This document shows positions 943 through 55,340 of a DNA stretch of 64,000 bases, one piece after another; position 1 is the first letter of the stretch; every line of letters starts with the position of its first letter. The stretch lies in contig QEVV01000004.1 in the NCBI GenBank assembly GCA_003228115.1, positions 85,175 to 149,174 on the forward strand, written 5' to 3'. This stretch comes from Chloroflexota bacterium. Lineage in GTDB: Bacteria; Chloroflexota; Dehalococcoidia; Lucifugimonadales; SAR202-VII-2. The notes beneath the pieces are model-generated. The model did no database searches. It saw only the letters and a list, made by a program, of their open reading frames with translations, and was not told where the DNA came from. The position numbers and the translations under genes are program-made.

Positions 943-1578
943 ATGCCAAAGACCCTTGTTGACGAGACCCTGCCCATAAACACCGGCAAGGCCTACGAAC
1001 TCAAACAAGGCCAGCTTCTACGCGTCTACGGCCAGACCACCGCCGACTTCGTCGCCTTCAACCTCCACGACCTCAAAGAGCGATTCGACCAGGCCAGGAC
1101 CAAGAGCAACCAGTCCAAGATATTCATCTCCACCGGCGACGTCCTCTACTCCCAGCGCAACAACGTCCTGCTCACCGTCACCGACGACCAGTTCCCCGGC
1201 CACCACGACATGCAAAAGGGTATGTGTAGCCGGAAACGCATTGAGATGGTCTTCATGGGCAAGTCACGACGCGACAAGTGGGGAGGAGGCCAACAGGTGG
1301 AGCAGCGTTGGGAGGACCTTCCCAGCCACGGCTGCTGGGAGAACCTATCGCGAGCCACAGAGGCCTGGGGCATAGACCCCGACGACCTGCCAGGCCCATT
1401 CAACCTCTTCCAAAACACCCGCATCGATGGCGACACAGGCATCATGTACTGGGACCTCGTCGACTTGGACGGGGACGTTTACGTGGAGATGCGGGCGGAG
1501 ACGGACTGCCTGGTAGCTGTGAGCAACTGTCCCGGCGGCCGCGGCCCGCTGACCCGCATCGTCGTCAGCGAGCCTTAG
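943..1578 (+). CDS. DUF1989 / urea-carboxylase-associated family protein
   Basis: ORF 871..1578. Start moved to ATG 943, which follows GAGGAGG (931-937); the upstream codons lie in or just after a repeat element. Family call from the FNLHD..ER...GDVLYS...HHD..C pattern. Confidence 0.65.
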   Translation: MPKTLVDETLPINTGKAYELKQGQLLRVYGQTTADFVAFNLHDLKERFDQARTKSNQSKIFISTGDVLYSQRNNVLLTVTDDQFPGHHDMQKGMCSRKRIEMVFMGKSRRDKWGGGQQVEQRWEDLPSHGCWENLSRATEAWGIDPDDLPGPFNLFQNTRIDGDTGIMYWDLVDLDGDVYVEMRAETDCLVAVSNCPGGRGPLTRIVVSEP

Positions 1579-1599
1579 GCCCATGCGAGAGCTTGTGGT

Positions 1600-2049
1600 T
1601 CAGGAGACTCGCTGTCCCTCAACCACACCGTTCAGAGTCCAGAACGAACCCTCTGCCGGAACCCCGGTGATGCTCCCATAATTGACCACCAGCGACGACC
1701 CATCGCCCTGCAGGTAGTGGTCCCAGGAATCGGCCGTCGTGCCCCCGACCCTAAGTACCACAGCCGGGCCCTCGCCCGATTGGTGGAACCGGTACAGGGT
1801 GCCTGCCGGCATAATCATGCCTTCGCCCCGGCTCACAACAGTGGCTTCATCGCCCTCGTTGTAGAACGTGGCCTCGCCATCGAGCACCAGGTAGGTCTGG
1901 TCCTCGTACGTGTGGCTGTGCAACATCACCTCGCCACCCTCAACCAAGAACTTCAACGACAGTCTTGTCCTATCAGTGCCGGGTAGTTCTTCGTTGCTCC
2001 TGCCCTCACTTAGCAACTGCGTCTTCAACTCAAACTTTTGGGGTTCCAT
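1600..2049 (-). CDS. cupin domain protein
   Basis: ORF 1600..2076. ATG 2049 follows GGAGGAG. Cupin-like LHSHTYEDQTYLVLDGEATF and PAGTLYRFH motifs. Confidence 0.7.
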   Translation of the reverse strand: MEPQKFELKTQLLSEGRSNEELPGTDRTRLSLKFLVEGGEVMLHSHTYEDQTYLVLDGEATFYNEGDEATVVSRGEGMIMPAGTLYRFHQSGEGPAVVLRVGGTTADSWDHYLQGDGSSLVVNYGSITGVPAEGSFWTLNGVVEGQRVS

Positions 2050-3061: not shown

Positions 3062-4666
3062 TTAGGCCAGAAGGCCGTGTTCCACAGCGAAGAGTGTTGC
3101 GGTGGCCCGGCTGGAAACGCCGATCTTGCTGTAGACATGCTCCAAGTGTGACCGGACAGTTCCTTCGGCTATAAAGAGGGCATTTGCAACCTGCCGACGA
3201 TTGAGACCCTTGGCTATCAGACGGAGCACCTCCACCTCGCGATCGGTGAGCCCGGCTGGCCACTCTTGCTGGCGAGTCCTCTGTCTGTGGGAACGGTCCA
3301 CGCCACTCAGTTCGTCCGTAAGAGCCTGGAAAACATCCGTAGAGAACCTTGCCCCTACTTCTTGGCGCATTACTTCGACCGCCTGATCGATCTCGCGGGC
3401 AGGACTGCCAGGTGAGTCGTGCGTAAGCTCGTCGAATCGATCAGCTAAAGCTATTATCCGTGCGCCCACCGGTATCTGGGAGCCCTGAACCCCACGATAA
3501 TAACCGCTACCGTCCATTCGTTCATGGTGTGCCGCCACCAGGGGAATAATCGCCACTAGGGCTGGTACTTTGGACAGAATTCGCTCCGAATGGTACGGGT
3601 GGAGCCGCACTTGCTCCCGCTCGGCCTCCGTGAGGGTTTCCGGGAACTTGTTCAGCACGAAGGAGGGTACTGCCACAATCCCAATATCATGCACCAAGGC
3701 AGCTTGGTAGATGGTGGTTACCTGCGATTCGTTAAGCCCCATCCTCCGAGCGATGCGGTCAGCCAGATCGGCTATTCGGCGCGAACGACCGGCCAGAAAC
3801 GGCGATTTCAGGTCGGCGTAGTCGGCCAAGGCCAGCGTCACATCAGTCAGCTTCTCCTCCCCCATGTACTGATAGGGAGACTGCTCTGGCTCCATGGAAA
3901 GGACGCTGTCCCAGACCCTTTCCTCTTCCAGTCCTCGCCAGAAGCTTTCCTTCCGCGCCACGGAGAGGAAGGCATCAACCACCGACGGATCAAAGGCTTT
4001 GTTGCGTCTGGCCTGTGCCACATGCATTGCGGCATCACGGCCCTCCACTCGATGGAAGACCTCCAGAAAGCTCGTCACCAATACGATACGAGAGATGACA
4101 GGGATGGCGCCTTTCTTATTGCCGTATGGCATCCCGTGGCCATCCCACTGCTCAAAGACCTGCATCAACGCATCCTGGACTGACTGTGGCATTCCCAGCC
4201 GCTGGGCAATGCGTGAAGCCACAAGGCAGGTGTTTTCAAAACCCTCCTTCATAAACGCCCGGCCCTTTACCAGGAAGTCCAGAATATGGTTTGCACGGGT
4301 TGGCAAGGATGCTCCAGCCGCCACGTACTTCATCAGCCATGAAGCAATATCCAAGGGGTTCCGAGCATTGCGAAAGAACTGAAGGTCCCGCTTGGCAACA
4401 AGCTCGTCGACAAGCCAAGAACTGGCTAACTGACTGGTGTACGTAGTGCAGCCGGCGTCCTTTAACAGCTCAGCGTAGAACAGGTCGGTGCGCTGGTCTA
4501 AAGGAAGCTCCATCTCCTGAGCAATGTGCATGCCAATATAGCAAGAGCGCGCCCCGTGCTCCGTGTGCATCCCCAACGCGAGGTCGCTCGCCAGCGAGAA
4601 GGCCCCCAACAGGTCAGCAGTACGAAGGGCGTTCCCTTCTCGGCTCGCCGATGGTAGCTCTGCCAT
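3062..4666 (-). CDS. HD / HD-GYP domain protein fused to a LuxR-type HTH
   Basis: AAGGAG lies 7 nt before the ATG. N-terminal HD-like region, HD-GYP signature HHERMDGSGYYRG, and C-terminal LTDREVEVLRLIAKGL..TVRSHLEHVYSKIGV (LuxR/GerE HTH). Confidence 0.75.
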   Translation of the reverse strand: MAELPSASREGNALRTADLLGAFSLASDLALGMHTEHGARSCYIGMHIAQEMELPLDQRTDLFYAELLKDAGCTTYTSQLASSWLVDELVAKRDLQFFRNARNPLDIASWLMKYVAAGASLPTRANHILDFLVKGRAFMKEGFENTCLVASRIAQRLGMPQSVQDALMQVFEQWDGHGMPYGNKKGAIPVISRIVLVTSFLEVFHRVEGRDAAMHVAQARRNKAFDPSVVDAFLSVARKESFWRGLEEERVWDSVLSMEPEQSPYQYMGEEKLTDVTLALADYADLKSPFLAGRSRRIADLADRIARRMGLNESQVTTIYQAALVHDIGIVAVPSFVLNKFPETLTEAEREQVRLHPYHSERILSKVPALVAIIPLVAAHHERMDGSGYYRGVQGSQIPVGARIIALADRFDELTHDSPGSPAREIDQAVEVMRQEVGARFSTDVFQALTDELSGVDRSHRQRTRQQEWPAGLTDREVEVLRLIAKGLNRRQVANALFIAEGTVRSHLEHVYSKIGVSSRATATLFAVEHGLLA

Positions 4667-19948: not shown

Positions 19949-19962
19949 CGAACATGCGTTCC
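19949..19962 (+). promoter_or_regulatory. LexA (SOS) box of the GAAC-N4-GTTC type in the lexA promoter
   Basis: CGAACATGCGTTCC lies about 35 nt downstream of TTGACA (19910-19915) and 31 nt upstream of GTG 19993. Confidence 0.7.
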
Positions 19963-19992
19963 CCCCCAAGCACTTACCAAGAGGGGTTCAGC

Positions 19993-20634
19993 GTGAAAAA
20001 GCTTTCCACCAGGCAACAGGGCATCCTGGAGTTTCTTGAATCCTTCATCGACGAGCACGGCTACCCCCCAACAGTCAGGGACATTCAACACGGATGCAGC
20101 ATCAGCTCCACATCCGTTGTCGACTACAACCTGCGCCACCTAGAGCGGGAGGGTTACATCAACCGGGACCCGGATGTGTCCCGGGGCATTGGCCTGACAG
20201 AGGGCAGCTACGGCCGCAGGGATAACGTGGTCAGCCTTCCTCTCCTTGGCTACATTGCCGCCGGTACACCAATTCCCGTCCCCACCGCGGAAGGTTGGGC
20301 CTCCACAGAGCCCCTGGACAGCGTTGACGTGCCCACGTATTTGACCGGCGGTCGCCGCGATGTCTACGCCCTGAAAGTGAAGGGCTTCTCGATGATCGAC
20401 GCCCTCATCGACGAAGGGGATGTGGTAGTTCTTGAGCCCATACGGCAGGCCCAAAACAACGATATGGTGGCCGCCGTTCTCACCGACACCAACGAGGTCA
20501 CACTCAAGCGTTTCTACGCAGAGGGCTCTCGCGTTCGCCTTCAGCCGGCCAACAGCCAAATGGAACCCATCTACGTTGACGCCGACAAAGTGGAAGTCCA
20601 CGGCCGCGTGGTAGCCGTCCTCCGCATAATGTAG
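19993..20634 (+). CDS. lexA: LexA repressor
   Basis: ORF 19954..20634. N-terminal wHTH (LSTRQQGILEFL..GYPPTVRDI), S24 peptidase core (GFSMIDA..GD, TLKRF). ATG 19954 lies inside the SOS box, so GTG 19993 (after GAGGGG) is preferred. Confidence 0.85.
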   Translation: MKKLSTRQQGILEFLESFIDEHGYPPTVRDIQHGCSISSTSVVDYNLRHLEREGYINRDPDVSRGIGLTEGSYGRRDNVVSLPLLGYIAAGTPIPVPTAEGWASTEPLDSVDVPTYLTGGRRDVYALKVKGFSMIDALIDEGDVVVLEPIRQAQNNDMVAAVLTDTNEVTLKRFYAEGSRVRLQPANSQMEPIYVDADKVEVHGRVVAVLRIM

Positions 20635-49447: not shown

Positions 49448-49559
49448 CAGTTCCTCCACAAGCCACACATCGGTGACAGCAGTTCGGCCTCCAAGCCCGC
49501 CAGATCCACACAACCCTTGACGTGCTGAAAGAGTCCGAATGCGCAATTTGCTTCCCACC

Positions 49560-49586
49560 GTCATTCCGGCGAAAGCCGGAACCCAG
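49560..49586 (+). repeat. family-C hairpin repeat
   Basis: GTCATTCCGGCGAAAGCCGGAACCCAGG, in the amt upstream region. Confidence 0.7.
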
Positions 49587-49787
49587 GAACGTCCGTTCAG
49601 CGAGACATGGGCCGAACAACCCCAATCCTACCGCCCCACCCCCTTCACCAAGCCAACCTGCGATCCCAGCGGGGTGCAGAACACACCGAGAACCATCCTC
49701 AGCACCTTGCTCCCTCAGCGCCCTCGGGTGATTACCTCGTTCCAACATCCCGTATCACCCCCTGCCCACACCATTGTTTGGCAACCT

Positions 49788-49858
49788 GTAACAAAACGTT
49801 AACAACGTCGCAACATGCCGGAAACTCACCCCTCGTACATTGGAAACAACGTTCTAAC
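49788..49858 (+). promoter_or_regulatory. phased nnAAC pentamer array (GlnR-box-like) upstream of amt
   Basis: GTAAC(49788) n6 TTAAC(49799) n6 GCAAC(49810) n6 GAAAC(49821), then in the same 11-bp phase GAAAC(49843) n6 CTAAC(49854). ATG at 49874. Confidence 0.5.
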
Positions 49859-49873
49859 AGGGGAGGTTCCGGC

Positions 49874-51289
49874 ATGTTCAAACTCATTCGGAGCAGGAAG
49901 GGCAAGATATCGATTCTCGCCTTGTGGGGCATGGCCATCTTCTTGATGTCCGGCGGTCTGGCCCTGGCCCAAGACCCAAGCGGCGCAGCCACGCTAGCTG
50001 CCGACTCCACCGCGGCCGTGAACTTCACGTGGACATTGATGGCCGCGTTCTTAGTGTTCTTCATGCAGGCGGGCTTCGCCTTCTTGGGAGCGGGCCTAAT
50101 CCGCTCCAAGAACACGGTCAACTATATGACCAAGAGCTTCATGGACTTTGCTGTCGCAGCCCTCAGCTTCTGGGCCTTCGGCTTCGCTTTGATGTTCGGT
50201 GGTTCAGCGGTTGCCTCCGGCCTCATGGATGGTAACGCCTGGATCGGCTACTCAGGCTTCTTCCTCAGCGGCCAGGCCTATGACGTCTCCACCGCTGAGT
50301 TGTGGATTTTCCAGATGGTCTTCGCCGGTACCGCTGCAACCATTGTGGCCGGAGCCGTCGCTGAGCGTATGAAGATCAACGCCTACCTCGCCTACGCATT
50401 CATCGTCGGCGCTATCATCTACCCCTTGTACGGCCACCAGATCTGGGGCGGCGGCTGGCTCTCCACCCTCGATTTGGGTGCTGGAGCTGTCGACTTCGCC
50501 GGCTCCGGTGTCGTCCACGCCGTCGGTGGGTTCGTTGGGCTGGCCGGGGCCATTATGGTCGGCGCCCGCATTGGCAAGTTCAACGCCGACGGAACATCCA
50601 ACGACATCAGGGGTCACAATATCCCCTACATCCCAATAGGCGTCTTTATACTGTTCTTTGGATGGTTCGGCTTCAACGCCGGTTCCACCCTGGCGGCGAC
50701 AGAGCTTCGCATTTCCATCATAGCTGTGAACACGCTACTGGCAGGGGCAGCGGGCGCTATTGTCGGCCTGTACTACTCCATCGCCCGTACCGGCAAGGCC
50801 GACATTGGCTCCGCCGCCAACGGCACCCTGGCTGGCCTCGTAGGCATCACCGCCTCCTGCGCTTGGGTCGCGCCATGGGCCGCAGTGGTCATCGGCATAA
50901 TCGCCGCACTGGTCATGAAGGGCAGCAGCTACGCCGTTGAGCGTTGGCTCAAGGTGGACGACCCGGTCGGCGCTGTCTCGGTTCACGGTGCTGCTGGCAT
51001 CTGGGGGCTCCTCTCAGTCGGCTTCTTCGCCGACGGCACCTATGGCAACTACACAACCGACGGCCCCTTTGTCACCGGCCTGTTCTACGGTGAATGGGAG
51101 CAACTGGCGGCCCAGCTCATCAGCGCCGTTATGGTTGTAGCTTGGTCCCTGGGCACCGGCCTGCTCCTCTTCTGGGTGCTCAAGAAGACCATGGGAATCC
51201 GTGCGTCCCGAGAGGAAGAACTAGAAGGGCTGGACATGCCAGAGCATGGGCTCGCCGCCTACCCAGAGTTCGTAAGTCCACAAAAGTGA
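49874..51289 (+). CDS. amt: ammonium transporter
   Basis: ORF 49607..51289. ATG 49874 follows GGGGAGG and gives a signal peptide (..GGLALAQDP). FAFLGAGLIRSKN and DFAGSGVVH motifs. Strong terminator downstream. Confidence 0.9.
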   Translation: MFKLIRSRKGKISILALWGMAIFLMSGGLALAQDPSGAATLAADSTAAVNFTWTLMAAFLVFFMQAGFAFLGAGLIRSKNTVNYMTKSFMDFAVAALSFWAFGFALMFGGSAVASGLMDGNAWIGYSGFFLSGQAYDVSTAELWIFQMVFAGTAATIVAGAVAERMKINAYLAYAFIVGAIIYPLYGHQIWGGGWLSTLDLGAGAVDFAGSGVVHAVGGFVGLAGAIMVGARIGKFNADGTSNDIRGHNIPYIPIGVFILFFGWFGFNAGSTLAATELRISIIAVNTLLAGAAGAIVGLYYSIARTGKADIGSAANGTLAGLVGITASCAWVAPWAAVVIGIIAALVMKGSSYAVERWLKVDDPVGAVSVHGAAGIWGLLSVGFFADGTYGNYTTDGPFVTGLFYGEWEQLAAQLISAVMVVAWSLGTGLLLFWVLKKTMGIRASREEELEGLDMPEHGLAAYPEFVSPQK

Positions 51290-51355
51290 GGCTTCTAGGC
51301 GCCGCTTCGGCCAGAATGGTCGCAAGCAGCTAGATGTCATTCCCAGCGGACAAGA

Positions 51356-51396
51356 GAAGGAGCGCCCCGACGACATCGGGGCGCTCCTTCTTTTGT
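51356..51396 (+). terminator. rho-independent terminator of amt
   Basis: 14-bp stem GAAGGAGCGCCCCG/CGGGGCGCTCCTTC, loop ACGACAT, then TTTTGT. Confidence 0.85.
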
Positions 51397-51465: not shown

Positions 51466-51503
51466 GAAACACAAACGTAACATCCCCGCAATTGGCTTGT
51501 AAT
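51466..51503 (+). promoter_or_regulatory. phased pentamer array (GlnR-box-like) upstream of small ORF copy 1
   Basis: GAAAC(51466) n6 GTAAC(51477) n6 GCAAT(51488) n6 GTAAT(51499). TGTAAT (51498-51503) could double as the -10. Confidence 0.45.
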
Positions 51504-51558
51504 AAAAGCCTGGCATTCTAGTGGCAACGAAAACAATTTCCCTATGAGGTGTTGAACC

Positions 51559-51645
51559 ATGGAAATCATTATTGCAGGAGTCGCCTTCGTAGCACTGTTC
51601 GGCCTTTGGGTCATCGTACCGAGCAAGCTGCTCCGCAAGCGCTAA
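51559..51645 (+). CDS. 28-aa single-TM small membrane protein, copy 1 (MEIIIAGVAFVALFGLWVIVPSKLLRKR)
   Basis: Below the ORF-track length cutoff. GAGGTG lies 7 nt before the ATG, and an intrinsic terminator follows. Peptide identical to copy 2 despite 7 nucleotide differences, all synonymous. Confidence 0.75.
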   Translation: MEIIIAGVAFVALFGLWVIVPSKLLRKR

Positions 51646-51665
51646 ACACAAGACCTTGGTAGAGA

Positions 51666-51704
51666 AGAGCGCTCCGGCAATGTCGGAGCGCTCTTTCTTT
51701 TTGT
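51666..51704 (+). terminator. rho-independent terminator of small ORF copy 1
   Basis: AGAGCGCTCCG GCAATGT CGGAGCGCTCT, then TTCTTTTTGT. Confidence 0.85.
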
Positions 51705-51759
51705 CCCGCCACTGGCGGACTCAGCGTAGGCTGTGCTATCGTGCCGCTCTCACTCAACC

Positions 51760-51797
51760 GCAACGCAAACGTAACATGCCTGCAATTGGCCTGTAAT
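51760..51797 (+). promoter_or_regulatory. phased pentamer array (GlnR-box-like) upstream of small ORF copy 2
   Basis: GCAAC(51760) n6 GTAAC(51771) n6 GCAAT(51782) n6 GTAAT(51793). Confidence 0.45.
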
Positions 51798-51853
51798 ACT
51801 GGCGTGGCATTCTGTTACTAACGAAAGTAATTCTTCTTCCAGGGGTGTCAGAC

Positions 51854-51940
51854 ATGGAAATCATTATAGCAGGAGTCGCCTTCGTCGCACTGTTCGGCCT
51901 CTGGGTCATCGTACCAAGCAAGCTCCTTCGCAAACGCTAA
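51854..51940 (+). CDS. 28-aa single-TM small membrane protein, copy 2
   Basis: Same peptide as 51559..51645. AGGGGTG upstream, with its own intrinsic terminator. Confidence 0.75.
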   Translation: MEIIIAGVAFVALFGLWVIVPSKLLRKR

Positions 51941-51962: not shown

Positions 51963-51998
51963 GAAACGCTCCTGCAATGCGGGAGCGTTTCTTTTTTG
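51963..51998 (+). terminator. rho-independent terminator of small ORF copy 2
   Basis: GAAACGCTCC TGCAATGCG GGAGCGTTTC, then TTTTTT. Confidence 0.85.
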
Positions 51999-54599: not shown

Positions 54600-55340
54600 T
54601 TAGCCCTCCCGCACCCGAATGCGGGAAGCCGCTTCATACCCCAATGCGATCTCTGTCCCGCCCTCGGTTCGCAGCACCATAACTCCCCGGTAGGGTGCTG
54701 CCTCTACCACATGCAAGGATTGCCCGGGCAACACGCCCTGAGCAATCAAATAGCCCAACAATTCCACCCCATGCTCTGGTACCCACGTCACGATGTAGCG
54801 ACTCCCAGATTCTGCCCCAGCAAGCGACATCTCGCCAGATCGGTCCGCTTGGTCTGCTCCGGGGATCGGATGACCAAAGGGGCAAACTGAGGGATATCCC
54901 AGCCGCTGAGCAATTTTTTGCTCTGTAAGGCGGGACAGCCCGTGTTCCAGCCGGTGGGCCTCTTGATGCGCCCGCTCCAGAGGGACGCCAAGCTCCGTGA
55001 CCGCAAGGCATTCCGCCAGCCGGTGCCGTCTCACAACGTCCCTCGCCATCTCCCGGCCTTCCTCCGTCAGCCGCACTTCTTTACCGGGAGTAATGTGCAC
55101 CAGTCCCTGCCGGGCCATGCGCCGCACCATCCCCGTTACCGAAGGCAGCGACGTCCCCTGATGTTCGGAGGGAGCAAGGCCCCGAAGGTAGTCGGCTACA
55201 TGGCCTGGGGTCGGAGCGACATCATCCTCTTCAAGTATGAAGATGGCCTGAAGGTAGTTCTCAGCCGCAGGCGAAAGCCGCGGATGGCCTTCGCTGGGTG
55301 CAGACCGGGCGTACTCTTGTATAGATGCGGTGGCAACCAT
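54600..55340 (-). CDS. DtxR/MntR-family metal-dependent transcriptional regulator with FeoA/SH3-like C-terminal domain
   Basis: ENYLQAIFIL, a helix-turn-helix, RRHRLAE..L dimerisation helix and a C-terminal SH3-like part. Confidence 0.8.
   Translation of the reverse strand: MVATASIQEYARSAPSEGHPRLSPAAENYLQAIFILEEDDVAPTPGHVADYLRGLAPSEHQGTSLPSVTGMVRRMARQGLVHITPGKEVRLTEEGREMARDVVRRHRLAECLAVTELGVPLERAHQEAHRLEHGLSRLTEQKIAQRLGYPSVCPFGHPIPGADQADRSGEMSLAGAESGSRYIVTWVPEHGVELLGYLIAQGVLPGQSLHVVEAAPYRGVMVLRTEGGTEIALGYEAASRIRVREG

What the first reader, a model, noticed from the sequence alone, without database searches (positions are those of the whole stretch)
49788..49858. Helically phased nnAAC pentamer arrays shared by the amt promoter and both small-peptide promoters (GlnR-box-like)
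Upstream of amt, GTAAC-n6-TTAAC-n6-GCAAC-n6-GAAAC is followed, two helical turns later and in phase, by GAAAC-n6-CTAAC. The same 11-bp periodic architecture precedes each small ORF: GAAAC-n6-GTAAC-n6-GCAAT-n6-GTAAT at 51466..51503 and GCAAC-n6-GTAAC-n6-GCAAT-n6-GTAAT at 51760..51797. The distance to the start codon is similar in all three (49-57 nt). This resembles the a-site/b-site GlnR box described for actinomycetes (gTnAc-n6-GaAAc repeated), where amtB is a core target. The arrangement would place the small peptides in the same nitrogen regulon as amt. Whether this organism encodes an OmpR-type GlnR cannot be seen in this window.
Basis: partly seen in the sequence, partly recalled or inferred. 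Interest (0 to 1): 0.62.

Follow-up and report, generated by a model that had tools for sequence, protein, structure and literature searches.

The report
GlnR-like nitrogen boxes in Dehalococcoidia
Three promoters in this marine Chloroflexota (Dehalococcoidia) fragment, one for an ammonium transporter and two for copies of a tiny membrane peptide, carry four evenly spaced GnAAC repeats that look and are positioned like the binding sites of GlnR, the actinobacterial nitrogen regulator, and relatives encode a GlnR-like protein right next to such sites.

Summary
Four nnAA[CT] pentamers at an 11-bp period occur only three times in 64 kb (expected 0.04). All three are on the + strand, before amt and the two 28-aa ORFs.

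Each array ends exactly 10 nt upstream of a -10 hexamer, and there is no -35. The same arrays, in one orientation and with the same -10 spacing, occur in 36 of 56 Chloroflexota amt loci. They occur in 0 of 16 archaeal and 0 of 8 other bacterial loci.

Across these loci the arrays precede amt, a second amtB, glnA, the small peptide, and a roughly 225-aa OmpR-type regulator gene. That regulator's best solved-structure relatives are actinobacterial GlnR, and its receiver domain is degenerate. It sits inside GOGAT/amtB-glnK-glnA clusters.

The geometry matches the published GlnR transcription-activation complex: four head-to-tail sites, the last one downstream of the -35 position.

Caveats:
- No regulator gene lies in this window.
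- Binding, the transcription start and the nitrogen response are all inferred.
- The extra downstream GAAAC-n6-CTAAC pair is not conserved.
- The same repeat skeleton serves as a PHO box in other phyla.

No paper in the searched library links OmpR-type GlnR to Chloroflexota.

The parts
49788..49825 (+). amt operator: four direct-repeat pentamers (GTAAC, TTAAC, GCAAC, GAAAC) with 6-nt spacers, centred at about -58, -47, -36 and -25 relative to the predicted transcription start
   Evidence: The matrix from other genomes scores it 37.6 bits. The pentamers are invariant and the spacers free in the alignment with L001, L002, L003, L015 and L025.
49836..49841 (+). Predicted -10 hexamer TACATT of the amt promoter, 10 nt after the last pentamer. 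There is no -35 consensus.
   Evidence: At offsets +10/+11/+15 after the array end, T is present in 31, A in 45 and T in 45 of 47 arrays. The consensus scan found no sigma-70 promoter with a -35 here.
49843..49858 (+). It lies at the predicted +1/5'UTR and is probably not part of the operator.
   Evidence: Present in the sequence, but neither sequence nor phase is conserved in L001 and L002.
49874..51289 (+). amt, an ammonium transporter of 471 aa; Shine-Dalgarno GGGGAGG at 49860-49866
   Evidence: PF00909, E 2.8e-119. TIGR00836, E 4e-128. Seawater metatranscriptome contigs cover 49964-51343.
51359..51395 (+). Hairpin plus T-tract: predicted amt terminator
   Evidence: Read from the sequence. 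Rfam matches here are hairpin-only and below threshold. The last RNA contig ends at 51343.
51466..51503 (+). Peptide-1 operator: GAAAC, GTAAC, GCAAT, GTAAT with 6-nt spacers
   Evidence: matrix score 52.6 bits.
51511..51519 (+). Predicted extended -10 TGG-CATTCT of the peptide-1 promoter, with the hexamer 10 nt after the last pentamer
   Evidence: Same register as in 47 arrays; identical in the paralog.
51559..51645 (+). Small ORF 1, 28 aa: MEIIIAGVAFVALFGLWVIVPSKLLRKR, a predicted single-pass membrane peptide
   Evidence: All 7 nucleotide differences from ORF 2 are synonymous. The family is linked to amt in more than 30 Chloroflexota loci.
51664..51706 (+). Intrinsic terminator after ORF 1
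51760..51797 (+). Peptide-2 operator: GCAAC, GTAAC, GCAAT, GTAAT
   Evidence: matrix score 46.9 bits.
51805..51813 (+). Predicted extended -10 TGG-CATTCT of the peptide-2 promoter
51854..51940 (+). Small ORF 2, encoding the identical 28-aa peptide
51963..51998 (+). Intrinsic terminator after ORF 2

Best explanation
The arrays are operators for a GlnR-like transcription factor. This is an OmpR/PhoB-family winged-helix protein with a degenerate, probably non-phosphorylatable receiver domain, and it is encoded elsewhere in this genome.

Four protomers would bind head-to-tail to the four GnAA[CT] sites, one per helical turn. The promoter-proximal protomer sits between the -35 position and the -10 hexamer. 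From there it would recruit RNA polymerase to a promoter that has a -10 but no -35, as in the actinobacterial GlnR activation complex.

The window thus holds three separate nitrogen-controlled transcription units: amt and two copies of a 28-aa membrane peptide gene. Each has its own operator, -10 and terminator, and they are presumably switched on together when nitrogen is scarce.

Shown: the motif, its statistics, its conservation, its fixed register with the -10, its near-exclusive association with nitrogen-assimilation genes, and the adjacency, autoregulatory arrays and GlnR homology of the candidate regulator in relatives.

Inferred: physical binding, activation rather than repression, the nitrogen signal, the transcription start sites, and the presence of the regulator in this particular genome.
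For: Statistics.

Conservation: arrays of 4 or more units occur 49 times in 717 kb, 47 of them on the amt strand. A weight matrix gives 85 hits in 806 kb, 83 of them on the + strand, to which each locus was oriented by the gene used to fetch it. Hits occur in 36 of 56 Chloroflexota loci, 0 of 16 archaeal and 0 of 8 other bacterial loci.

Geometry: the last unit ends 10 nt before a conserved TAnnnT, and no -35 is present. Arrays mostly come in even numbers of units: 33 with 4 units, 13 with 6, one with 8, and one each with 5 and 7. This parallels the 2-box and 3-box organisation of GlnR sites (PMC5826061).

Targets: amt, a second amtB, glnA (PF00120), the peptide, and the regulator itself.

Regulator: about 225 aa with a Trans_reg_C domain. 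It lies beside amt in L014, L015, L017, L018, L022, L028, L034 and L036. Its best PDB hits are GlnR, at E 1e-31 and 5.5e-32, against 6e-22 and 2e-24 for RegX3. The GlnR DNA-contact residues W179, R188 and Y217 are invariant and R196 and R213 nearly so (125 and 126 of 128), although they are also common across the OmpR family. The receiver's catalytic positions are degenerate.

Independent loci fetched through the regulator show GOGAT - regulator - (asnB) - amtB-glnK-glnA. In each of the six loci long enough to contain the amtB promoter, the only strong array (45-49 bits) sits just before amtB.

An unbiased metagenome pattern scan recovers Ammonium_transp as the commonest downstream family, 19 of 90.

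Published GlnR data agree: a/b sites gTnAc/GaAAC (GTAAC in the crystal), 6-nt spacers, four head-to-tail protomers, and the b2 site downstream of the -35 (PMC10235972).
Against: No OmpR-type gene lies in the 64-kb window, and I could not search the rest of this genome.

No binding, transcription-start or nitrogen-shift expression data exist. Metatranscriptome contigs show only that amt is transcribed, and no RNA run could be listed for the peptide region.

The repeat skeleton is not unique to nitrogen control. The same pattern precedes pstS, Na/Pi cotransporter and PHO4 genes in other phyla.

The window's peptide operators deviate from the commonest nitrogen-class signature, having GAAAC or GCAAC first and GTAAT last, and their -10 begins with C.

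The DNA-contact residues shared with GlnR are conserved across the whole OmpR family, so they do not by themselves predict specificity.

Most loci were fetched through Amt, which biases the list of target genes.
Confidence: 0.8

Rival explanations
1. The arrays are bound by the same GlnR-like (or an MtrA-like) OmpR-family protein, but it acts as a repressor. It would occlude the -35/spacer region when nitrogen is plentiful, and transcription would be driven by the -10 or extended -10 alone.
For: The sites cover roughly -60 to -22, overlapping where RNA polymerase binds. The peptide promoters have an extended -10, TGnCATTCT, that could work without a -35. In Streptomyces, MtrA represses nitrogen genes that GlnR activates (abstract of PMC9151340).
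Against: The exact 10-nt register between the last site and the -10 in 47 arrays, and the single orientation, are what an activator contacting RNA polymerase requires. A steric repressor does not need them. The amt promoter has neither a -35 nor an extended -10. The homologous GlnR activates from this same geometry (PMC10235972).
Confidence: 0.1
2. The arrays are PHO boxes. A phosphate-responsive PhoB/PhoP-type response regulator would bind them, making amt and the peptides part of a phosphate regulon or subject to phosphate/nitrogen cross-control.
For: PHO boxes are 11-nt direct-repeat units bound head-to-tail (PMC4415409). My metagenome scan with the array pattern also hit promoters of PstS-type binding proteins (16), Na/Pi cotransporters (5), PHO4 (2) and PstB (1). 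In Streptomyces, PhoP competes with GlnR at the amtB and glnA promoters (abstract of PMC3561978).
Against: None of the 85 hits in the Chloroflexota loci precedes a phosphate gene. The phosphate-class arrays are uniform GTAAC x4, and many carry a TAnnTTTG-type -10, which I recall as the Bacteroidota promoter element. The nitrogen class reads GTAAC-TTAAC-GTAAT-GAAAC, and the window's amt operator fits it at units 2 and 4. The adjacent regulator lacks phospho-acceptor chemistry and has no kinase partner.
Confidence: 0.06
3. No dedicated regulator is involved. The phased AAC tracts would be a structural promoter feature, such as intrinsic curvature or an UP-like element, or a chance pattern.
For: A-rich tracts phased at about 10.5-11 bp can bend DNA (general knowledge). 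AT-rich 11-bp satellites also matched the search pattern in unrelated metagenome contigs (L117, L135, L173, L189).
Against: Expected chance count is 0.04 against 3 observed. In the three proximal units of the 47 aligned arrays, the G at pentamer position 1 (G in 45, or G/T in 46, of 47) and the C/T at position 5 are conserved while the spacers vary freely, which is a protein-recognition pattern and not an A-tract. The arrays are restricted to nitrogen genes of one phylum, and a homologous DNA-binding protein is encoded alongside.
Confidence: 0.03

Closest known systems
Actinobacterial GlnR box and GlnR, the orphan OmpR/PhoB-family nitrogen regulator (Streptomyces, Mycobacterium, Saccharopolyspora, Amycolatopsis)
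   Same: The sites are 5 nt long (gTnAc / GaAAC, or GTAAC) with 6-nt spacers. They occur as two boxes (4 sites) or three boxes (6 sites at amtB). Binding is head-to-tail, and the last site lies downstream of the -35 position. Core targets are amtB and glnA. The regulator is an orphan with an atypical receiver (PMC10235972, PMC5826061, PMC10704036). The Chloroflexota regulator's best solved-structure relatives are GlnR.
   Different: The phylum differs: Chloroflexota/Dehalococcoidia, including marine lineages. The b1 position is usually TTAAC rather than GaAAC. The receiver is more degenerate than the one described for GlnR: Asp occupies the phospho-acceptor position in only 33 of 128 members, and the other catalytic positions are lost. 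The commonest target is an uncharacterised 27-43-aa membrane peptide. DBD-only paralogs exist. In this window amt has no adjacent glnK.
PHO box / PhoB-PhoP regulon
   Same: Both use 11-nt direct-repeat units, tandem head-to-tail binding of an OmpR/PhoB winged helix, and replacement of the -35 element (PMC4415409). GTAAC x4 arrays in the same register with a -10 precede pstS, pit and Na/Pi genes in other phyla.
   Different: The targets here are nitrogen genes, not phosphate genes. The unit signature differs. The associated regulator has no phospho-acceptor pocket and no adjacent kinase.
Firmicute GlnR/TnrA (MerR family) sites and cyanobacterial NtcA sites
   Same: These also control amt and glnA in response to nitrogen. 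GTnAC-like half-sites give a superficial resemblance.
   Different: Those are palindromes bound by dimers: TGTNA-N7-TNACA and GTA-N8-TAC (consensus sequences recalled from memory). Neither occurs at any of the three window promoters. The element here is 4-8 direct repeats in a single orientation.

Membership tests
GlnR box (cis-element of OmpR-type GlnR) | 5-nt sites resembling gTnAc/GaAAC (GTAAC) separated by 6 nt, giving an 11-bp period | tested here: met
   GTAAC-n6-TTAAC-n6-GCAAC-n6-GAAAC at 49788-49825, and the two peptide arrays. Definition taken from PMC10235972.
GlnR box (cis-element of OmpR-type GlnR) | Sites organised in a-b pairs: two boxes (4 sites) typical, three boxes (6 sites) at amtB | tested here: met
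   Array sizes across loci are 4 units (33 arrays), 6 (13), 8 (1), and 5 and 7 once each. Compare PMC5826061.
GlnR box (cis-element of OmpR-type GlnR) | Promoter-proximal site lies downstream of the -35 position in a promoter with a poor -35 and a recognisable -10 | tested here: met
   The last unit ends 10 nt before a conserved TAnnnT, so its centre is near -25. No -35 was found. Compare the b2 site 'downstream of the -35 element' in PMC10235972. The transcription start itself is not mapped.
GlnR box (cis-element of OmpR-type GlnR) | Located at promoters of nitrogen-assimilation genes such as amtB and glnA | tested here: met
GlnR box (cis-element of OmpR-type GlnR) | Physically bound by GlnR (EMSA, footprint or ChIP) | not testable with these tools
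   Requires experiment.
GlnR (OmpR/PhoB-family orphan regulator), the candidate trans factor | C-terminal OmpR/PhoB winged-helix DNA-binding domain | tested here: met
   PF00486 at E 2.7e-25 and 2.8e-24 for the regulators of L018 and L014. This holds for relatives, not for this window.
GlnR (OmpR/PhoB-family orphan regulator), the candidate trans factor | Closer to characterised GlnR than to other OmpR-family regulators | tested here: met
   PDB phmmer gives 8HIG, 8HIH and 8HML at E 1e-31 to 6e-28, against RegX3 at 6e-22. For the L015 regulator the figures are 5.5e-32 against 2e-24. There is a weak PF21695 (GlnR_1st) hit, and precomputed PF21695 hits appear in several family members. No phylogenetic tree was made.
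GlnR (OmpR/PhoB-family orphan regulator), the candidate trans factor | Atypical receiver domain, with activity independent of canonical Asp phosphorylation | tested here: inconclusive
   By sequence, the catalytic positions are degenerate in 128 members. Activity was not tested.
GlnR (OmpR/PhoB-family orphan regulator), the candidate trans factor | Orphan: no cognate histidine kinase gene adjacent | tested here: met
   Neighbours in L081-L086 are GOGAT subunits, AsnB, AmtB, PII and GlnA. No kinase-sized ORF flanks the regulator in L014, L017 or L018.
GlnR (OmpR/PhoB-family orphan regulator), the candidate trans factor | Encoded in the genome that carries these operators | not testable with these tools
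   Absent from the 64-kb window (tblastn; hmmsearch --max best E 0.13).
PHO box / Pho regulon | Direct-repeat units precede phosphate-acquisition genes (pst, pho, pit) | tested here: not met
   None of the 85 hits in the window and the Chloroflexota loci precedes such a gene. Phosphate-class hits in other phyla have a different unit signature.
TnrA/GlnR (MerR) and NtcA operators | Palindromic TGTNA-N7-TNACA or GTA-N8-TAC | tested here: not met
   No match at any of the three promoters on either strand.

The most novel reading that the evidence does not exclude
The 27-43-aa membrane peptide (consensus ME.I....AF..LF..WVV.P....KK) is a dedicated partner of the signal-peptide-bearing Amt-type ammonium transporter in Chloroflexota. 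It would act as an accessory or regulatory subunit occupying the genomic, and perhaps functional, place that GlnK/PII holds next to the same transporter type in archaea. It is also the single most frequent target of a GlnR-type regulon that predates the split of Actinobacteria and Chloroflexota.
Probability: 0.3. Interest if true: 0.75.

Novelty: new member of a known kind. Interest (0 to 1): 0.6.

Why it matters
I found no paper in the searched library describing nitrogen regulation by an OmpR-type GlnR in Chloroflexota, and recent reviews treat that protein as an actinomycete regulator.

If the reading is right, an abundant and mostly uncultured group has a readily predictable nitrogen regulon. 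The group includes marine Dehalococcoidia; the window is held by seawater metagenomes and metatranscriptomes. The regulon has a defined operator, a candidate regulator and a clear promoter architecture.

This makes nitrogen-status markers for metatranscriptomes possible. It extends the unusual 'four protomers, last one downstream of -35' activation mode beyond Actinobacteria. It also flags an unannotated small-protein family as a core nitrogen-stress gene tied to ammonium transport.

Tried and rejected
- **Regulator in the window.** ORFs of 220-250 aa gave a hydrolase, DUF1989, Amdase, isochorismatase, LexA, a DtxR-like protein and others, but no OmpR-type protein. tblastn and a maximum-sensitivity profile search of all six frames were also negative.
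- **RNA element in the 5' regions.** Rfam gave only sub-threshold hairpin hits at the terminators. The predicted 5'UTRs of about 26-34 nt look too short for a riboswitch.
- **Canonical sigma-70 promoter.** None was found upstream of the three genes.
- **Sigma-54.** Peptide 1 has TGGCAT-N5-TGGCA (GG-N10-GC), but this is absent from peptide 2, amt and relatives, so I rejected it.
- **MerR-type GlnR/TnrA and NtcA palindromes.** Absent.
- **Expression evidence.** Metatranscriptome contigs cover only the amt coding region and give no transcript start. No RNA run could be listed for the peptide region.
- **Peptide identity.** There were no significant Pfam or NCBIfam hits. The 233 database relatives are nearly all unnamed or 'hypothetical'.
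- **Base-specific GlnR residues as a specificity test.** They are conserved, but also across the OmpR family, so this is uninformative.
- **The downstream GAAAC/CTAAC pair.** Not conserved.
- **Literature.** No paper in the library pairs OmpR-type GlnR with Chloroflexota, Dehalococcoidia or SAR202.

Full report
**What is in the sequence**

- Upstream of amt (ATG 49874; 471 aa; PF00909 at E 2.8e-119): GTAAC 49788, TTAAC 49799, GCAAC 49810, GAAAC 49821.
- Upstream of the first 28-aa ORF (51559-51645): GAAAC 51466, GTAAC 51477, GCAAT 51488, GTAAT 51499.
- Upstream of the second copy (51854-51940): GCAAC 51760, GTAAC 51771, GCAAT 51782, GTAAT 51793.

Four AA[CT] triplets at an 11-bp period occur three times in the 64-kb window on both strands. 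These are exactly the three sites, all on the + strand, against 0.04 expected from second-order Markov simulations. AAC x4 occurs once against 0.0 expected. The two peptide loci are duplicates of each other, promoter included. The window therefore holds two independent instances.

**Organism**

The Amt protein is 92% identical to that of two Dehalococcoidia MAGs (L001, L002) and 59-72% identical to many other Chloroflexota. Seawater and marine metagenomes hold the stretch almost word for word. This is a marine Dehalococcoidia (Chloroflexota), not an actinomycete.

**Conservation**

In 80 loci fetched through Amt, arrays of four or more units occur 49 times in 717 kb. Of these, 47 are on the strand of amt.

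Aligned on the array end, the pentamers read G-[T/C/A]-A-A-[C/T], usually followed by A. The 6-nt spacers are unconstrained. A -10 hexamer TAnnnT follows at a fixed distance, with T in 31, A in 45 and T in 45 of 47 arrays at offsets +10, +11 and +15. In the window these hexamers are:
- TACATT at 49836-49841;
- TGG-CATTCT at 51511-51519;
- TGG-CATTCT at 51805-51813.

No -35 consensus is present.

A 55-nt matrix built without the window's own sites scores them at 37.6, 52.6 and 46.9 bits. The next unrelated window position is below -7, and shuffles reach at most 4.4. Across 806 kb the matrix gives 85 hits. They fall in 36 of 56 Chloroflexota loci, in none of 16 archaeal loci and in none of 8 other bacterial loci.

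An alignment of amt promoters from genomes whose Amt is only 68-92% identical shows invariant pentamers in a sea of substitutions.

It lies after the -10, at the predicted start of the transcript.

**What the arrays precede**

Downstream genes of the 85 hits are as follows.
- The small peptide: 43.
- Amt-family transporters: 29, plus three more among the unclassified hits.
- An OmpR-type regulator gene: 6-7.
- glnA: 1 (PF00120).

In Dehalococcoidales loci the order is array - peptide - amt. In the window's lineage, amt and each peptide copy have their own array and terminator.

**The candidate regulator**

In L014, L017 and L018 a 232-233-aa gene lies directly upstream of the peptide-amt unit and is itself preceded by a four-unit array. 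Homologs lie beside amt in L015 (divergently transcribed), L022, L028, L034 and L036. Shorter DBD-only versions are found in L008, L013 and L027.

The protein has a Trans_reg_C winged helix (E about 1e-25) and a weak hit to the GlnR N-terminal domain family PF21695. Against all solved structures the top three matches are 8HIG, 8HIH and 8HML, at E 1e-31 to 6e-28. RegX3 comes next at 6e-22. For the L015 protein the values are 5.5e-32 against 2e-24. PMC10235972 identifies 8HIH as the M. tuberculosis GlnR activation complex and 8HML as S. erythraea GlnR-DBD bound to DNA.

In 128 family members the DNA-contacting residues are invariant or nearly so. The receiver's catalytic positions are degenerate:
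- the first acidic position is never acidic;
- Asp is at the phospho-acceptor position in only 33 of 128;
- the Thr position is never Thr;
- Lys is present in only 30 of 128.

Public annotation calls these proteins only 'response regulator' or 'PhoP'.

**Independent checks**

First, loci fetched through two regulator proteins rather than through Amt show archaeal-type GOGAT subunits - regulator - (asnB) - amtB - glnK - glnA. In each of the six loci of 12-17 kb, the only strong matrix hit (45.6-49.4 bits) lies immediately upstream of amtB in the right orientation.

Second, I ran a metagenome-wide exact scan with a degenerate array-plus-(-10) pattern, which is blind to gene content. Among 90 first downstream ORFs, Ammonium_transp was the commonest family (19), with one GlnA and one Trans_reg_C.

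The same scan also brought up promoters of PstS-type binding proteins (16), Na/Pi cotransporters (5), PHO4 (2) and PstB (1). The repeat skeleton is therefore shared with PHO boxes of other phyla.

The two classes differ.
- Phosphate-class arrays are GTAAC x4, and many carry a TAnnTTTG-type -10.
- Nitrogen-class arrays read GTAAC-TTAAC-GTAAT-GAAAC followed by TAnAcT. This echoes the a-site/b-site distinction, and the window's amt operator fits it at units 2 and 4.

**Mechanism**

Published work on actinobacterial GlnR describes gTnAc and GaAAC sites (GTAAC in the crystal) separated by 6 nt. Two boxes are typical and three occur at Streptomyces amtB. Four protomers bind head-to-tail, and the promoter-proximal one binds the b2 site downstream of the -35 element while touching the beta flap and sigma region 4 (PMC10235972, PMC5826061).

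The arrays here have the same unit, the same spacer and the same 4- or 6-unit organisation. With the -10 register, the last unit is centred near -25. That also places it downstream of the -35 position.

I therefore think the arrays recruit RNA polymerase through a GlnR-like protein to promoters that lack a -35, switching on amt and the peptide genes together. Binding, the direction of control, the signal and the transcription starts are all inferred. Seawater metatranscriptome contigs confirm only that amt is transcribed.

**The peptides**

The two copies differ at seven nucleotides, all third-position and synonymous, so the peptide sequence is under selection. The family is 27-43 aa, with invariant F, W and P in a hydrophobic helix followed by a basic tail. 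It is linked to amt in more than 30 Chloroflexota loci. It has 233 relatives among 5.8 billion proteins, nearly all unnamed or 'hypothetical', and no Pfam or NCBIfam match.

The same Amt type is followed by PII/GlnK in Methanothrix.

**Limits**

- The window has no OmpR-type gene.
- The target list is biased by Amt-based retrieval. It is partly corrected by the regulator-based loci and the pattern scan.
- The matrix was trained on arrays chosen by the AA[CT] x4 rule. The pentamer core is therefore circular, but the leading G, the orientation, the -10 and the gene association are not.

**Novelty and verdict**

No paper in the held library connects OmpR-type GlnR with Chloroflexota, Dehalococcoidia or SAR202. 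The 2023 review treats GlnR as an actinomycete regulator.

I rate this a new member of a known kind: a GlnR-type operator-regulator system in another phylum, with a more degenerate receiver and a previously unnoticed small-peptide target. Confidence in the GlnR-like activator model is 0.8, and interest is 0.6.

Noticed in passing
window 51559-51645 and 51854-51940; L001-L077 (many): The 28-aa peptide belongs to an unannotated family of 27-43-aa single-helix membrane peptides tightly linked to amt in Chloroflexota. It is often tandemly duplicated. The window's two copies differ only by 7 synonymous changes. The same Amt type in Methanothrix is followed by PII/GlnK instead.
   Followed up: partly
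L008 about 3400-3700 (-), L013 about 1285-1640 (-), L027 2548-2946 (+): Short (about 98-133 aa) OmpR-type proteins consisting of the DNA-binding domain only lie next to amt and are themselves preceded by arrays. They may be receiver-less paralogs or competitors of the full-length regulator.
   Followed up: no
L088-L207 (metagenome pattern scan): GTAAC x4 arrays in the same register with a -10 precede pstS, Na/Pi cotransporter, PHO4, pstB and TonB-receptor genes in other, lower-GC lineages. Many carry a TAnnTTTG-type -10. These look like PHO boxes sharing the skeleton of the nitrogen arrays.
   Followed up: partly
window 51526-51533 and 51820-51827; L001, L003, L015, L065-L077 promoters: A short yCGAAAy motif recurs about 10 nt downstream of the -10 hexamer, near the predicted transcript start, in peptide promoters and SAR202-like amt promoters. 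Its function is unknown.
   Followed up: no
window 51511-51526: Peptide-1 promoter only: TGGCAT-N5-TGGCA resembles a sigma-54 -24/-12 element (GG-N10-GC). It is not conserved in the paralog, in amt or in relatives.
   Followed up: yes
window 49556-49589: A GC-rich hairpin (cattccggcgaaagccggaa...) lies in the long 426-nt spacer upstream of amt. One metatranscriptome contig maps to it in both orientations, which suggests a repeated palindromic element or a terminator of the upstream SDR gene.
   Followed up: no
L081-L086: In lineages fetched through the regulator, the gene sits inside a nitrogen supercluster: archaeal-type split GOGAT (GATase_2, Glu_synthase, GXGXG) - regulator - (asnB) - amtB - glnK - glnA. 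No array above threshold precedes the GOGAT genes.
   Followed up: partly
window 19954-20634 (+), 54600-55340 (-): The only transcription factors recognised among the mid-sized ORFs tested are a LexA homolog and a DtxR/IdeR-type metal repressor with a FeoA domain. Neither is related to the arrays.
   Followed up: no
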